NCBI GenBank assembly: GCA_036867785.1
Contig: CP145420.1
Coordinates: forward strand, 62,001 to 126,000
Length of the DNA stretch: 64,000 nucleotides
From: Plasmodiophora brassicae
Lineage: Eukaryota
Direction: 5' to 3'
Positions within the stretch are counted from its first letter, which is position 1. Each line of letters starts with the position of its first letter. The notes below the pieces were generated by a model. That model was not told the DNA's origin and made no database searches. It saw only the letters and a program-made list of their open reading frames with translations. The position numbers were made by a program, and so were the translations under genes. Below are positions 20,025 to 44,483 of this stretch, piece by piece.

Positions 20025-20376
20025 GCGTCGACCTGCCGCTGCCATGGGCAACAACCACGAGCGGGTCCTGGATCATCGAGGCCGCCGCGATCACCCGATC
20101 CTGATCTCCGTCCGAGTCAGTAGGCTGCTGTATGGCACGTTCAGCGCCTGCCAGCCCTGCCGCACGGCGTCCCGGTACTCATCGTCGCCGCATCATGAAC
20201 GTGGATCACGTCCCTGCGACGACGAGTACCGGGACGGCGTGAGGCAGGACTGGCAGGGGACGAACGTGGCATACAGCGTACTGACTCGGACAGAAACCAG
20301 CGTCGGGGTGATCGCGGCGGCCTCAAGATCCAGGACCCGCTCGTGGTCGTAGCCCATGGCAGGAGCAGGTCGACGC
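20025..20376. repeat. Fold-back inverted repeat 1 (arms 20025-20188 and 20216-20376), derived from the triplicated orphan ORF
   Basis: GCGTCGACCTGCCGCTGCCATGGG...GTACTCATCGTCGC pairs with GCGACGACGAGTAC...CCCATGGCAGGAGCAGGTCGACGC. Confidence 0.85.
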
Positions 20377-20676
20377 ACGAGGGACAGTTCCGGGGAGCGC
20401 GGCACGGGACGGTGCTGTATACGTTCTTCGGCGCCACCGCTCGTCCGCCGTTGCTGATCTTCAGGTGCTTGTTGTGGCGCAGACACTCCATACATGTTCC
20501 TGAAGACCGACGGCGGCCTGTATATCGAGAATCCATCGACCACGTCGTGCAACCCGGTCCGTCCTGTACGACGACGCACTGCGCGCAGTCGGCGGGCCCG
20601 ATCGACTGTGGCTGGACCTGGCGCCCGGTGCTCCGGTCATCGTCGACTGGAACCACCTGTCATCTTGAGAACTAGT

Positions 20677-22860
20677 ATGCCTACGTACACGTGCAACCCC
20701 CTTTTCTGGAATCAGCGTATGATTATCAGCGACACGGTATGCGATTGGCGAAACGCCACTGGGCACTGGCCCGACAAGTCGTCCCATTGGTGCAAAGCTG
20801 CGAGGCGCGCGCAGTTGGAAGTTTGCCGCGCCATCATCAATGGGCGATGGCGACGACGTGTCATTCCTGTTGCGGACACTGACCCGACTGAACGTTGTCC
20901 GCGCCGTCCCCGACAATGCGCCCTGCAGCGACCTGGAGAGGATGCCCGCCGACCCGGACGAACGGCAGAGATTCGTCGACGCCGTCATGGGTCGGTTTCG
21001 CGGACGGGACGTGCCGCCCGGGGCGCTGGACGCGAATTGGCCAGCGCTGCAGAGCAAGTTCCTGGAGCAGCTGGCCGATTCGCGACAGGCGATCGCGGAA
21101 TTCTCGACGCACGCCGAGTTCCTGCGATGCTTCGTCCCGATGCTGTTCAACCGCAGCCTGGCCAGCGCAGCGGCGATGATCCTGCTCAATGCGATCGAGA
21201 CGGCGGCAGGCCCGCCTCGCATGGTGGACGCGATCTTGGCCGAGGACGTCGCACCCGCCATCAACCGCGTCCTCGTTCGCCATGGGACCACCCTGGACAC
21301 GCTGGCCTGCATTGCGGAATTGCTGGAGTGCATCGCTGAGCACCGGCAGTGCCGGGACGCGTCGGCGTTCCATGCCGACCAGCGGATTCTGGCGAAGGCC
21401 TGTGCAGACGGGTTCGCCAGGTGCACTGCCTTGTACAATCAGCTGTCCGGACCGTGCGACGATGCATCCATCGAGGCGTTCATCGAGCACTCGCTGGACG
21501 TCAGGTACGGATCGTTCTGCGCCGACCTGACTGCCCGCCTGACTGTCCTGCGATCCCTGCCAGTGACTATGACCTGCAAGAGCGCTACAAGGAAGGCGCG
21601 GCGATCGTGGCTGTAGCGGTGGAGTCGCTCGCGCGGGCGGCTTTGCTGCTGCACCTGTCCTGCAGCGAGTATGGCCTCGGTATCAAACGTGCTACTGCGC
21701 TTGTTGAATGCTGCTGCCCAGGATCGTCTCGGTGGCAGGCGATCATTCGCCCCTGCCGTCAATGGCTCTGGAGGCGCTCAGCAAACCGGGTGGCGTACGC
21801 GAATGGCGGCCCCCGTTCCTGTCGGCGTGTTTCCTGGCTGACTTGCTGGATGCCAGCTCGCACCTGGATCATCATTTTCGGCACAATCGCATGGAGCACT
21901 CTACGTCCAGAGGGAGCGCCGACCGGGTCTATGCGGAGGACCAGGAGCGATTGTGGGATCGGCAAGAACAGCGGGTGTTGCACCTTGTATCCACCGATTC
22001 AGGATTGCAGCGCCTGACAGCCATTGTCGACTGGATCGTGTCTCGGGCACGCCAAGACGACGGCAGGCGTGTAGAGCGAAGTGAAGGCGCTGATGACGCG
22101 ACGGACGCCTCGCCCGCCTGCGATATTGCATGCGTCGCCCCGGTGGCCAGTAGCCTCATGTCGTGTATTGCAAACATCGGCCTCCTGAAGCCGCTACCGC
22201 TGCCGCTGCTGTCTAGTCTGTGCGCCCTCGTGAAGGTCGGCGCTGGCAGTCATCCGAGCGCGCGTGCCTCGGTGCTAACTGCGACTTCCTAGGGCATGCC
22301 TGCGCCGTTCTTCGCCACCAGGGATCGGGTAATCAGTATGCGTCGCGACCAGAGGCATTTCCCGGCTGCTGTCTCGGAGTCGGTCGCGTTGGTCCTGCTT
22401 CAGTGCAAGGCCATCCACGACCAGGACCTCCCCGGCGTCGGCAGCGCCGAGCTCGTGTCCCTCTGCAGGAACGCTTGTCGAAGTGCGCACAGGCGAGGTC
22501 GGGACCGCCTGTCTCGAGGTACGCGGTGGGGCAGGAGGTCGCGTTCCCGAGTACCTACTGATGCGCAAATCGCTGCCCAGGGGACGCCGCTGCCGCCATA
22601 CCGGCGCTGTCCACCGCCATCAGGCTGTACGAGCTCGACGCCGACTGCAACGAGTACGCCGAGTGTCTGTCCGACAGGTACGTTCGGCGTCGGATGTGGG
22701 GAGGCCTCCTCAGATACGAACAGCCAGGTCGGAATGCTTCGTGCAGCAGCGTCAGTACGCTGCCGCGTTCGTCGATGCGCGCCGGGCCGTCGACGTGTGC
22801 CCAGACGACCGTCTGCTGCAAGAGCGCCTCGGTCAGGTCGAATACAACCTACCTCGATGA
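20677..22860 (+). pseudogene. Fragmented helical-repeat/TPR-like gene relic
   Basis: Successive protein-like ORFs (20840, 21349, 21708, 22296, 22483) are linked by frameshifts and a stop; C-terminal RSECFVQQRQYAAAFVDARRAVDVCP is TPR-like. Confidence 0.45.
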
Positions 22861-22933
22861 GCGACATCGCCCGTCTGTCGGTTCGGTTGGGGGGCGGCCG
22901 CCTGGCGCAGCCTCTCGCCCACGTTGTATATCG

Positions 22934-43300: not shown

Positions 43301-43764
43301 CTGTTCCCCGCCAGAGTCGTGCCAGTGATCCCGCGGTACGAGGAGGTACCTCGTCGGCCTCATCGATACTCGATTTCTCCTCCTTATCGTTGCCTGTAAT
43401 GGCGGTGGCGCTGGTCGCACTACTGGCCATTATCATCATGGCCGTCGTCGTGTGTTGCCGATATCGGTCACGACCGTCCGCCAATCATCATCGCGGCCCG
43501 ACAAACCTCCTCCTGATTCCGTCAATGGTCCCGGTGCAATCGGGTCCAGTACTGGGAGGGCCATCATTGTCGTTCACATCGTCGAGCTCGCATGGCGCAC
43601 AGTATGTGTACAATCCGTCAAGCTCGGTCGAACTGGCGGCACTGCCCGAGCGGACCGCTGCCAAGATGGGACGACGACGTCTCGTCGCCAGAGATAAGTT
43701 TAACCAGGGCGCGCACACGTTCGCAGACTCAACCGATAGCGACATGGGCACCTTGCCTTCATGA
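40343..43764 (+). CDS. Type I membrane protein with two GH18 chitinase-like domains (3 introns)
   Basis: Signal peptide; KGNFYQLRLLKQ..TLISVGGWTYS..YGFDGIELRW|EYP and HGNFNQLRRLKLKYPHLK..YGFDGLNIKW|ENP; KLVLGV, ISYENPASIAAKAAYVK..LGG; TM VMAVALVALLAIIIMAVVVCC. Confidence 0.88.
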
Positions 43765-44021
43765 ACTATTCATATACTCGCATTGTCTCGATGCTGTGGC
43801 AAGTCGATCCACAGAGCGGCAGTCGGGCCCAGCTGTTGCACGACACGAGGACTTCGCCACATTGCGTTCCATCATATCCTGGCGCCTGGCGACGAACGCC
43901 TTGCCCAGAAGGATGGGCGTCTCCACGCGTACGATCAAGGAACGGCGACTGCGAGCTGAGCACGCCCTACGCGCCGCTTTCCATCGATACCAAACACTCG
44001 GCGGCGTTAACGAAGCAGTAT

Positions 44022-44483
44022 TGATCCTGTCCAAGTGGGATGCGAAGAACAACTTTCGCACGGAGGTGTACGATTCGGGGTCGGTGGACGGTCTGAGCAT
44101 TCCTGGGTTCATCGCCAGCACACACTGGCGGACGGATGATTCCCTTGAAGATAACCTGGACCGCTTCGTCAGGTACCGCACGACGCGATGGTACTCGTGG
44201 GCGCGAATACACCAGCCGGGTTCGGATGTCTTCCGCGGTCCCGGGCAGACATCCGAACCTGGCTGGAGATAGTCGAGAGGATGGCAGTAGCCGGGGAAGC
44301 ACGGGTGATTGACTGGGCGAGTACCATCGCGTCGGCCAAGCGGGCCAGGTCATCATCAAGTGAATGATCCGTTCGCCAATGTGAGCTGGCGATGCGCCCC
44401 GGAATGCTCAGACCGTCCACCGACCCCGAATCGTACACCTCCACACGAAAGTTGTTCTTTGCGTCCCATTTGGACAGGACCAG
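44022..44483. repeat. Fold-back inverted repeat 3 with nested stem
   Basis: 44022-44196 pairs with 44318-44483 (e.g. GACGCGATGGTACTCG/CGAGTACCATCGCGTC); inner 20-bp stem 44212-44231/44247-44266 has one mismatch. Confidence 0.88.

What the first reader, a model, noticed from the sequence alone, without database searches (positions are those of the whole stretch)
20025..44483. Three independent gene-fragment fold-backs in 25 kb: a candidate hairpin-RNA generating system
Seen: three unrelated long imperfect palindromes (20025-20376, 34672-35229, 44022-44483). Each is an inverted duplication of coding-like sequence. Two have cognate longer ORFs 1-2 kb away: the triplicated orphan ORF and the 31241-33250 ORF. 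Established: inverted gene duplication is a recognised origin of hairpin siRNA and young miRNA loci. Inference: these may be loci that silence neighbouring accessory genes, or scars of a recurrent template-switch mechanism. I cannot distinguish the two from sequence alone.
Basis: partly seen in the sequence, partly recalled or inferred. Interest (0 to 1): 0.72.

Follow-up and report, generated by a model that had tools for sequence, protein, structure and literature searches.

The report
Fold-back copies of orphan gene fragments
Three spots in the clubroot parasite's DNA each hold a piece of a young gene copied backwards onto itself, most likely by DNA-copying accidents, and at least one could supply the double-stranded RNA that this parasite's unusual gene-silencing pathway needs.

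Summary
All three imperfect palindromes are real: 20022-20379, 34672-35229 and 44022-44482. They are far beyond chance and are the only long fold-backs in the 64-kb window.

The window is Plasmodiophora brassicae. Each palindrome sits inside a decayed or unannotated extra copy of a lineage-specific gene:
- **P1:** exon 1 of the PBTT_06850/06853/06855 orphan family.
- **P2:** the 5' UTR and first ~47 codons of the neighbouring 670-aa orphan.
- **P3:** the 3' two-thirds of a PBRA_008628 paralogue.

In each case one side continues collinear with the parent gene. Arm divergence differs (about 15%, 7% and 12%), so these were three separate events. P1's axis is a short quasi-palindrome already present in the parent family. 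This anatomy fits snap-back/fold-back template switching.

The hairpin-RNA reading remains open:
- A 2026 paper shows this organism has AGOs and a Drosha-like enzyme but no Dicer or RdRP. It makes phased 21-nt RNAs from long hairpins.
- Only P2 shares exact 21-mers with its cognate gene, which is transcribed.
- None of the 225 named published miRNAs I could compare maps to the arms.
- I could not test small RNAs.

The scan has noted similar fold-backs in other genomes.

The parts
20022..20188 (.). P1 left arm. It is the forward part of a degenerate fourth copy of the orphan family (equivalent to 15136-15335 of copy 2).
20199..20211 (.). P1 axis. A 13-nt quasi-palindrome (5-bp stem, 3-nt loop) that is already present, with one mismatch, in all three intact family copies. 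Proposed snap-back priming site.
20216..20425 (.). P1 right arm. An inverted copy of the same family segment that reaches about 30-50 nt further into family sequence than the left arm now does.
20417..20662 (+). Forward family homology resumes here (~75% identity, exon 1 end and exon 2-like), a few bases beyond the point where it left off.
18408..19503 (+). Nearest intact cognate of P1 (PBTT_06855-type gene, CDS from 18731). Sister copies lie at 11163-12366(-) and 14753-15959(+).
31244..33253 (-). Cognate of P2: an annotated 670-aa P. brassicae-only orphan gene (called gene C here). It is covered by contigs of three spliced, RNA-derived runs.
33095..33476 (-). The segment of gene C (5' UTR and first ~53 codons) that is duplicated at P2.
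34672..34935 (.). P2 left arm. It is inverted relative to gene C, so on the minus strand it reads antisense to the gene's 5' end.
34936..34949 (.). P2 loop. It is collinear with the left arm's copy of gene C.
34950..35229 (.). P2 right arm, direct relative to gene C.
35234..35646 (.). Flank of the right arm. It is collinear with gene C upstream sequence as far as 33476, then joins directly to a copy of 30740-31017. This looks like an old tandem-duplication junction.
43847..44245 (+). Unannotated paralogue copy of PBRA_008628 (residues 10-144 in one frame). It contains the P3 left arm.
44022..44231 (.). P3 left arm.
44232..44246 (.). P3 loop (15 nt). It contains two self-complementary hexamers.
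44247..44482 (.). P3 right arm. An inverted, more decayed partial copy (residues ~65-140 of the paralogue).

Best explanation
The three palindromes are independent scars of snap-back (fold-back) template switching. They differ in age, and each arose inside a surplus partial copy of a young, P. brassicae-specific gene in a duplication-prone stretch. The proposed sequence of events is as follows. During replication or break repair, the growing strand folded back on itself at a short self-complementary site or a microhomology. It then copied 200-280 nt of itself backwards. Finally it either returned to the original template (P1) or stopped there, so that the inverted copy now lies beside the copy it was made from (P2, P3). 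Shown here: the inverted arms, their derivation from named genes, collinearity of one side with the parent, and the different ages. Inferred: the polymerase-level mechanism. A by-product, also inferred, is that each locus is a ready-made long-hairpin template. If transcribed, the parasite's Drosha-like RNase III should dice it. P2 is the only one whose products would match a neighbouring gene perfectly.
For: (1) Each palindrome is built from a gene fragment, and one side continues collinear with the parent. For P1, forward family homology stops just past the axis and resumes a few bases on, after a ~210-nt inverted insert. For P2, the right arm and flank follow gene C from 33113 to 33476. For P3, the left arm is part of a copy spanning residues 10-144 of PBRA_008628.

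(2) P1's arms are each other's closest relatives. Over 206 compared columns there are 18 changes shared against the three intact copies, then 19 private to each arm. P2's arms share an ~85-nt segment that gene C lacks.

(3) P1's axis is a 13-nt quasi-palindrome that pre-exists in all 3 intact copies. P3's loop holds two self-complementary hexamers.

(4) Arm divergence differs between the loci: 26/175, 18/263 and 24/193 mismatches. This points to separate events.

(5) Decay looks neutral. In P1 both arms carry equal numbers of changes with 42% transitions. P3's right arm differs from the paralogue at 8 of 50 residues against 1 of 50 for the left arm (read by eye).

(6) The surrounding region is full of other duplications: three 1.1-1.2-kb copies, two of them forming a large inverted pair, and a 2-kb direct pair.

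(7) Fold-back priming at breaks and forks is an established route to inverted duplications (PMC11724301, PMC10622511, PMC3907307, PMC10766183; search listing and abstracts only).
Against: The outer end of the presumed primary arm is shorter than that of its inverted copy in P1 (by ~30-50 nt) and in P2 (the left flank lacks the gene C homology that the right flank keeps). A later deletion must therefore be assumed.

In P2 the loop is collinear with the left arm but the flank is collinear with the right arm, so which arm came first is unresolved. The three-way substitution counts (gene C 6, left 4, right 11 of 192 columns) are nearly star-like.

Microhomology at the P2 junction is weak: 3 of 4 bases.

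P1 shows a strand bias. Of 16 polarised transitions, 14 would keep a G:U pair in a minus-strand hairpin RNA (p 0.004 uncorrected). This bias is absent from its flank (12 vs 18). Pure neutral decay does not predict it.

The organism's RNAi biology makes a functional role plausible.
Confidence: 0.7

Rival explanations
1. These are working hairpin-RNA (hpRNA-like) loci. Each is transcribed across both arms and diced by the Drosha-like PbDRL into phased 21-nt siRNAs. These siRNAs tune or silence the parent genes: P2 acts on gene C, in trans or in cis within a long minus-strand leader; P1 acts on the PBTT_0685x family; P3 acts on PBRA_008628. This would supply the dsRNA that an RdRP-less RNAi pathway lacks. 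It is compatible with a fold-back origin.
For: P. brassicae has two AGOs and PbDRL but no Dicer and no RdRP. The authors state that the source of siRNA precursors is unclear, and they show a palindromic region that yields small RNAs (PMC13547706: abstract, sections 2.2 and 3, passages).

In that paper's tables, adjacent PHAS loci coincide with single long precursors. PHAS21-131/132 equals the miR196 precursor of 271 nt. PHAS21-94/95 lies within the 798-nt miR179 precursor.

Predicted folds are -569/-555 kcal/mol for P2, -302/-329 for P1 and -350/-343 for P3, with z-scores of -22 to -49.

P2 shares 87 exact 21-mer positions with gene C at 33109-33288, across the start codon.

One deposited gene model (SPQ99863.1) starts inside P2's left arm on the minus strand and splices into gene C.

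P1 shows the 14:2 bias towards G:U-preserving transitions on the minus strand.
Against: No small-RNA data could be laid.

None of the Pb-miR001 to Pb-miR225 sequences I saw begins in P1-P3 plus about 30 nt of flank. Thirteen chance 8-mer matches all fail by base 12. This was a by-eye check, and three rows of lettered extra copies were not seen.

P1 and P3 share 0 exact 21-mers with anything else in the window. P1 has 0 of 676 exact matches and 17 of 676 one-mismatch 21-mers against copy 3.

P2 and P3 show no G:U bias: 7 vs 4, and 6 vs 6.

P1's arms also carry 22 transversions, so selection for pairing does not explain the transition bias.

Gene C is covered by contigs of three spliced runs, so it is not shut off.
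Confidence: 0.25
2. They are foldback-type transposons or MITEs that happen to carry gene fragments.
For: They have long terminal inverted structure. Small dispersed repeats lie nearby (31108-31193 resembles 44505-44580; there is a multi-copy stretch near 33942-34100).
Against: The three are unrelated to each other. None recurs elsewhere in the window. DNA-run depth over P1 and P2 equals the single-copy flanks. Each is collinear with a local parent gene beyond the palindrome. No target-site duplication is visible at the ends.
Confidence: 0.03
3. They are assembly artefacts (chimeric fold-back reads).
For: Fold-back chimeras are a known long-read artefact (my own knowledge, not checked here).
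Against: Artefacts give near-perfect arms, whereas these differ at 7-15% with indels. A short-read-derived DNA contig spans P1 without any difference, although that run may be the source sample. The 102-aa ORF across P1 is on 2 Logan contigs. Twenty runs from 8 studies hold at least 65% of sampled words of 34600-44590.
Confidence: 0.02

Closest known systems
Fold-back (snap-back) inverted duplications and templated inverted insertions at breaks and forks (yeast and human studies: PMC11724301, PMC10622511, PMC3907307, PMC10766183; listing and abstracts seen). Also quasi-palindrome template switching (Ripley model; recalled).
   Same: Inverted copy next to its template, a short spacer, and an axis at a short inverted repeat or microhomology. 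In P1 the copying returns to the original template, giving a clean inverted insertion.
   Different: The yeast templated insertions are mostly 5-34 bp and the human cases are kilobases to megabases. These are 200-280 nt, old, fixed, and all lie in surplus copies of orphan genes of a rhizarian parasite.
Drosophila hairpin-RNA (hpRNA) loci (PMC10317233, PMC10292708; listing and abstracts seen).
   Same: Long inverted repeats derived from the genes they resemble. The cognates are young, lineage-specific genes, and the repeats lie close to those cognates.
   Different: There, siRNA output and target derepression are demonstrated. Here neither is tested, and two of the three have no perfect 21-mer against a cognate in the window.
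Long-hairpin miRNA/phasiRNA-like precursors of P. brassicae (PMC13547706, Fig. 2G legend and Tables S6 and S8).
   Same: Same organism. Precursor sizes of 270-990 nt cover the sizes of P1-P3 (358-558 nt). They are mostly intergenic.
   Different: None of the 225 named miRNA sequences I saw lies in P1-P3. The paper gives loci only in its own assembly's coordinates, which I could not map. It does not discuss a gene-fragment origin for the arms in the parts I read.
Young plant MIRNA genes and mouse-oocyte pseudogene hairpins born by inverted duplication of target genes; Mu killer of maize (all recalled, not checked here).
   Same: An inverted duplication of a gene or element fragment creates a trans-silencer.
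   Different: Those act through Dicer pathways. This organism has a Drosha-like enzyme only and no RdRP, so hairpins would be needed rather than optional.

Membership tests
Fold-back / snap-back inverted duplication | Two arms in inverted orientation separated by a short spacer | tested here: met
   Spacers are about 3-27 nt (P1), 14 nt (P2) and 15 nt (P3).
Fold-back / snap-back inverted duplication | The arms were copied from each other, not from separate parents | tested here: inconclusive
   P1 meets this: 18 shared derived changes over 206 columns. P2 meets it by a shared ~85-nt segment, but the substitution counts are star-like. P3 has no DNA outgroup; at protein level the left arm is nearer to the paralogue (49/50) than to the right arm (41/50) (read by eye).
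Fold-back / snap-back inverted duplication | A pre-existing short inverted repeat or microhomology at the axis | tested here: inconclusive
   P1 is clear: a 13-nt quasi-palindrome present in 3 of 3 intact copies. P3 is suggestive: self-complementary hexamers in the loop, but no outgroup. P2 is weak: 3 of 4 bases.
Fold-back / snap-back inverted duplication | One side continues collinear with the parental sequence beyond the palindrome | tested here: met
   P1 resumes at about 20417. The P2 right flank runs to the equivalent of 33476. The P3 copy starts at 43847, 175 nt before the arm.
Hairpin-RNA (hpRNA / endo-siRNA) locus | Can fold into a long duplex of about 100 bp or more | tested here: met
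   The longest perfect runs are 21, 31 and 42 nt.
Hairpin-RNA (hpRNA / endo-siRNA) locus | Transcribed as one RNA across both arms | tested here: inconclusive
   Only contigs were available, with no strand information, and 223 pieces were not shown.
Hairpin-RNA (hpRNA / endo-siRNA) locus | Gives phased ~21-nt small RNAs dependent on the RNase III enzyme | not testable with these tools
Contigs drop short RNAs.
Hairpin-RNA (hpRNA / endo-siRNA) locus | siRNA-length perfect complementarity to a target gene | tested here: inconclusive
   P2 meets this (87 positions; 103 of 1076 21-mers). P1 does not (0 of 676). For P3 the DNA of the trans paralogue is not held.
Annotated P. brassicae miRNA precursors (PMC13547706 Table S8) | A listed mature sequence lies in the locus | tested here: not met
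   0 of the sequences named Pb-miR001 to Pb-miR225 that I saw. This was a by-eye comparison against a printed 8-mer index and assumes the isolates are identical at these loci.
Foldback transposon / MITE | Multi-copy, with target-site duplications | tested here: not met
   No other copy in the window. Single-copy DNA depth at P1 and P2. No flanking direct repeat seen. A genome-wide test was not possible.

The most novel reading that the evidence does not exclude
In a eukaryote whose RNAi has no RdRP and no Dicer, snap-back duplication of surplus copies of young genes is the routine way new long-hairpin siRNA precursors are born. Under this reading, each expanding orphan family quickly acquires a linked hairpin that tunes it. 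P2 would act on its own gene through a minus-strand leader that carries both sense and antisense copies of the start-codon region. P1's G:U-biased decay would be the trace of a minus-strand hairpin RNA. The many paired PHAS loci in the published tables would be the genome-wide face of the same process.
Probability: 0.22. Interest if true: 0.75.

Novelty: new member of a known kind. Interest (0 to 1): 0.45.

Why it matters
The 2026 description of RNAi in P. brassicae leaves one question explicitly open: where the double-stranded precursors come from when there is no RdRP. These three loci give a concrete, cheap-to-test answer, namely fold-backs of gene fragments. They also name exact coordinates and one exact target region (33109-33288).

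If the published small-RNA libraries light up these arms, two things follow. A mutational process (snap-back copying in duplicated orphan genes) becomes linked to the birth of regulators in a third eukaryotic supergroup. It would also explain why small-RNA loci there are mostly 'intergenic'.

If they do not light up, the loci are ordinary rearrangement scars. They are still useful as markers of a duplication-prone region rich in lineage-specific genes.

Tried and rejected
**No genome held.** The window's genome is not held. A genome-wide inverted-repeat census and a search for Dicer/AGO/RdRP were therefore impossible, and I used the literature instead.

**Sequencing runs.** The look-up of sequencing runs listed no RNA holder.

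**Read laying.**
- Three runs proved to be RNA-derived, carrying GT..AG joints of 49-82 nt that the DNA run lacks.
- Only contigs were available. 223 pieces and 17 joints were not shown, so I could not tell whether the arms themselves are covered, on which strand, or by one molecule. I draw no conclusion on transcription of the arms.

**Mapping onto the paper's assembly.**
- I tried to place the window on the paper's PbJS coordinates by the spacing of loci in Tables S6 and S8.
- Two near-matches in spacing turned up: Ctg_15 52858/67189 and Ctg_13 447830/462684. That is about what chance gives for 435 loci.
- The Ctg_15 candidate is excluded because its miRNA (miR196) is not in P1.

**Comparison with published miRNAs.**
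- A by-eye comparison of the listed mature miRNAs with an 8-mer index of P1-P3 found nothing.
- The 78,890 siRNAs are not listed by sequence, so this is a weak negative.
- The docx supplement was not read.

**Database and annotation checks.**
- Rfam and tRNA scans of the window gave 0 hits.
- Pfam gave no family for the orphan ORFs or the arm ORFs.
- The name 'MADS-box' that one NCBI record gives to the PBRA_008628 cluster is supported neither by Pfam (no hit below E 0.2) nor by a PDB sequence search (best E 1.3).
- The P3 left-arm gene copy is not in the protein collection in any of the 3 forms I tried. Its only relative in the 65-209 aa range is PBRA_008628.
- Earlier notes of this scan near the window or resembling P2: none.

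**Coding selection on both P3 arms.** Differences by codon position are 7/3/11, with 10 synonymous and 9 non-synonymous codons. This is not distinguishable from neutral decay. The identity counts printed by that script were one residue out of register. The figures 49/50 and 42/50 were read by eye.
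Full report
**What is there**

The window is eukaryotic. It carries YIF1, GH99, GH18, ankyrin, exosome RNase PH and Pus7-type genes, with 49-82-nt GT..AG introns. Proteins it encodes are on record as Plasmodiophora brassicae, as earlier notes of this scan had said.

Self-BLAST and the repeat finder confirm three self-inverted stretches at the stated places:
- P1 at 20022-20379, E 2e-85.
- P2 at 34672-35229, E 0.
- P3 at 44022-44482, E 6e-51.

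Arm-to-arm alignments give matches/mismatches/gap columns of 149/26/8, 245/18/32 and 169/24/75. In a whole-window scan, 7 of the 18 short-range inverted pairs belong to these three. The other 11 are 25-35-nt GC-rich matches at 70-77%. Rfam and tRNA scans are empty.

**What the arms are made of**

*P1.* The window holds three 1.1-1.2-kb copies at 96-97% identity: 11163-12366(-), 14753-15959(+) and 18408-19503(+). They encode the annotated orphans PBTT_06850, PBTT_06853 and PBTT_06855, which are two-exon proteins of 191-208 aa.
- P1's arms match residues ~59-125 of exon 1 at 82-84% DNA identity.
- P1 is followed at 20417-20662 by further, weaker family homology.
- P1 is therefore a fourth, degenerate copy with an inverted insert.

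*P2.*
- The left arm is an inverted copy of 33095-33304 (94% identity). The right arm is a direct copy of 33113-33302 (88.5% identity). That segment is the 5' UTR and first ~47 codons of the ORF at 31244-33253(-).
- This ORF is an annotated 670-aa protein with no relatives outside P. brassicae. Only 2 hits were found, both the same gene.
- The right flank stays collinear with the gene's upstream region to the equivalent of 33476. It is then joined directly to a copy of 30740-31017. That is the order expected at the junction of an old tandem duplication of the whole gene segment.

*P3.*
- An exhaustive HMMER search found exactly one related representative among 1.84 billion: PBRA_008628, 155 aa, on another contig.
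- Its residues 10-144 align in one frame to 43847-44245. The left arm is therefore part of a near-full-length, unannotated paralogue copy.
- Residues 65-115 align again, inverted, to 44489-44337.
- One NCBI record calls this cluster 'MADS-box domain-containing'. Neither Pfam nor a PDB sequence search supports that name.

**How they arose**

*P1.* With the three intact copies as outgroup, 206 columns give 18 changes shared by both arms, 19 private to the left arm and 19 private to the right arm. Four columns are three-state. The arms were therefore copied from each other after this copy diverged, and they have decayed equally since.
- The forward copy runs to just past a 13-nt quasi-palindrome (20199-20211; 5-bp stem, 3-nt loop). 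All three intact copies carry it with one mismatch.
- The inverted copy starts there.
- About 210 nt later the forward homology resumes a few bases beyond the point of departure.
- This is the pattern expected if a growing strand snapped back on a small hairpin, copied itself, and then re-annealed to its template.

*P2.* The arms share an ~85-nt segment absent from the gene. The loop is collinear with the left arm, and the flank is collinear with the right arm. Private changes are 6 in the gene, 4 in the left arm and 11 in the right arm, over 192 columns. The order of events is not resolved, and junction microhomology is weak.

*P3.* The 15-nt loop holds two self-complementary hexamers inside a 20-bp inner stem. 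The left arm's 50-residue core differs from PBRA_008628 at 1 position and the right arm's at 8 positions (by eye). The right arm is therefore the decaying copy.

Divergence between arms is about 15%, 7% and 12% with many indels. These values indicate three events at different times.

The first 20 kb of the window hold further duplications. Two of the orphan copies are the core of a large inverted pair (10646-12366 and 14753-16263). A 2-kb direct pair lies at 54582-56500 and 58143-60110.

Fold-back priming and fork template switching are established sources of inverted duplications. For those papers I saw only the listing and abstracts.

**Could they make hairpin RNA?**

As RNA, all three fold into long duplexes on either strand:

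| Locus | Plus strand (kcal/mol) | Minus strand (kcal/mol) |
|---|---|---|
| P2 | -569 | -555 |
| P1 | -302 | -329 |
| P3 | -350 | -343 |

The z-scores range from -22 to -49.

The organism's biology makes this relevant. For PMC13547706 I read the abstract, sections 2.2 and 3, passages, and parts 1-4 of the spreadsheet plus a search of it. The paper reports:
- Two AGOs, a Drosha-like PbDRL that dices long dsRNA, no Dicer and no RdRP.
- 21-nt phased small RNAs, mostly from intergenic loci.
- The statement that the origin of siRNA precursors is unclear.

In its tables, listed precursors are 58-993 nt long. Neighbouring PHAS loci often turn out to be the two halves of one listed precursor. Examples are PHAS21-131/132 with miR196, PHAS21-245/246 with miR038, and PHAS21-94/95 with miR179. 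That pairing is my reading of their tables.

Evidence against a silencing role here:
- Only P2 shares exact 21-mers with anything else in the window. These are 87 positions in four runs at 33109-33288, across the start codon of its cognate.
- P1 and P3 share none.
- P1 has 0 of 676 exact 21-mers and 17 of 676 one-mismatch 21-mers against the nearest intact copy.
- None of the mature sequences named Pb-miR001 to Pb-miR225 begins in P1-P3 plus about 30 nt of flank. Thirteen chance 8-mer matches all fail by base 12. This was a by-eye check, and three rows of lettered extra copies were not seen.
- The siRNA and PHAS loci are given only as coordinates of another assembly, which I could not map.

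**RNA evidence**

Of four runs laid on 18400-38399, one behaves as DNA. It shows no joints and has even depth. Three runs, from three studies, carry spliced joints.
- Contigs of the three spliced runs cover the P2 cognate without a break: 30953-33960 in two runs and 31199-34275 in the third. The gene is therefore transcribed, and its transcribed region reaches at least 1 kb upstream of the start codon.
- These contigs run through 33016-33865, where the deposited model SPQ99863.1 places an intron. That model starts inside P2's left arm on the minus strand.
- If a minus-strand RNA does run from P2 into the gene, it would carry sense (right arm), antisense (left arm) and sense (the gene itself) copies of the same 200 nt. 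This is inference.
- Whether the arms themselves are transcribed could not be resolved (see Tried and rejected).
- The DNA-run contig spanning 19408-22598 without a difference, and single-copy depth over P1 and P2, argue against an assembly artefact. However, that run may be the source sample.

| Locus | Mismatches | Transitions | G:U wobble in plus-strand RNA | G:U wobble in minus-strand RNA |
|---|---|---|---|---|
| P1 | 26 | 13 | 2 | 11 |
| P2 | 18 | 13 | 8 | 5 |
| P3 | 24 | 12 | 6 | 6 |

Polarised with the outgroup, P1 has 14 of 16 transitions of the C-to-U or A-to-G kind on the minus-strand sense (binomial p 0.004, uncorrected for three loci). Its flank shows 12 vs 18, and polarised P2 shows 4 vs 7 on that strand.

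Transversions are not depleted in P1: there are 22. Other duplicates in the window have 52-76% transitions. The bias therefore looks more like strand-specific deamination than selection for pairing. I leave it unexplained.

**Verdict**

The best-supported reading is three independent snap-back or fold-back duplications in surplus copies of young orphan genes. A role as hairpin-RNA sources is plausible for P2 in this RdRP-less organism and weak for P1. It is untested for P3, where the paralogue's DNA is not held. Testing all three needs only a mapping of existing public data.

Similar gene- or transposon-fragment fold-backs were noted by this scan in other genomes, with the same conclusion.

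Noticed in passing
window 10646-12366 and 14753-16263; third copy 18408-19503: A large inverted pair (96-97% identity, about 2.4 kb between the arms) carries two head-to-head copies of the orphan gene family. A third direct copy lies 2.4 kb further on. This is the same kind of inverted duplication at kilobase scale.
   Followed up: partly
window 31244-33253 (-): The 670-aa orphan ends in a GxCGSP-like motif. The protein atlas puts it nearest to trypsin-like (Trypsin_2) peptidases with helical N-terminal parts, but scores are only 0.75-0.79, which is lead level. It may be a Cys-for-Ser trypsin-fold protein with a zinc-finger-like N-terminus (PDB hit E 0.16).
   Followed up: partly
window 20022-20425: After the duplication, 14 of 16 polarised transitions in the P1 arms are C-to-T or A-to-G on the minus strand. 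Transversions are not depleted, and the flank shows no such bias. The cause is unexplained.
   Followed up: partly
window 31108-31193 and 44505-44580: A ~90-nt element is shared by the 3' flank of the P2 cognate and the right flank of P3 (32 nt at 97%). The DNA run has loose ends at 31162 and 31193, so further copies exist elsewhere in the genome.
   Followed up: no
window about 33942-34100: DNA-run depth rises about six-fold (421 against about 70) in the bin 33741-34407, with loose ends and variants at 33942-34036. This indicates a multi-copy element between the orphan gene and P2.
   Followed up: no
window 54582-56500 and 58143-60110: A direct 2-kb duplication at 86.5% identity, with internal shorter repeats.
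   Followed up: no
window 20740-24190 (+): The GH99 endo-mannosidase-type gene has at least five short introns and a long N-terminal extension. One RNA run (X3) differs from the window at about 20 sites in about 1.7 kb here, whereas two others do not, so X3 comes from a divergent isolate.
   Followed up: no
window 33016-34835 (-): The deposited model SPQ99863.1 (436 aa) starts in P2's left arm and skips the annotated start of the orphan gene by an 850-nt intron. RNA-derived contigs run through that 'intron', so the model is probably wrong in part.
   Followed up: partly
window 40331-43764 (+): Two GH18 chitinase-type genes lie in tandem directly upstream of the P3 gene copy. The second has a C-terminal membrane-anchor-like stretch.
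   Followed up: no
PMC13547706 Tables S6 and S8 (not the window): Many of the 435 PHAS loci come as adjacent pairs 6-200 nt apart, often of equal length (for example 259/259 and 385/385). Several of these pairs equal one listed miRNA precursor. This suggests that long two-armed fold-backs are a common small-RNA source in this organism.
   Followed up: partly
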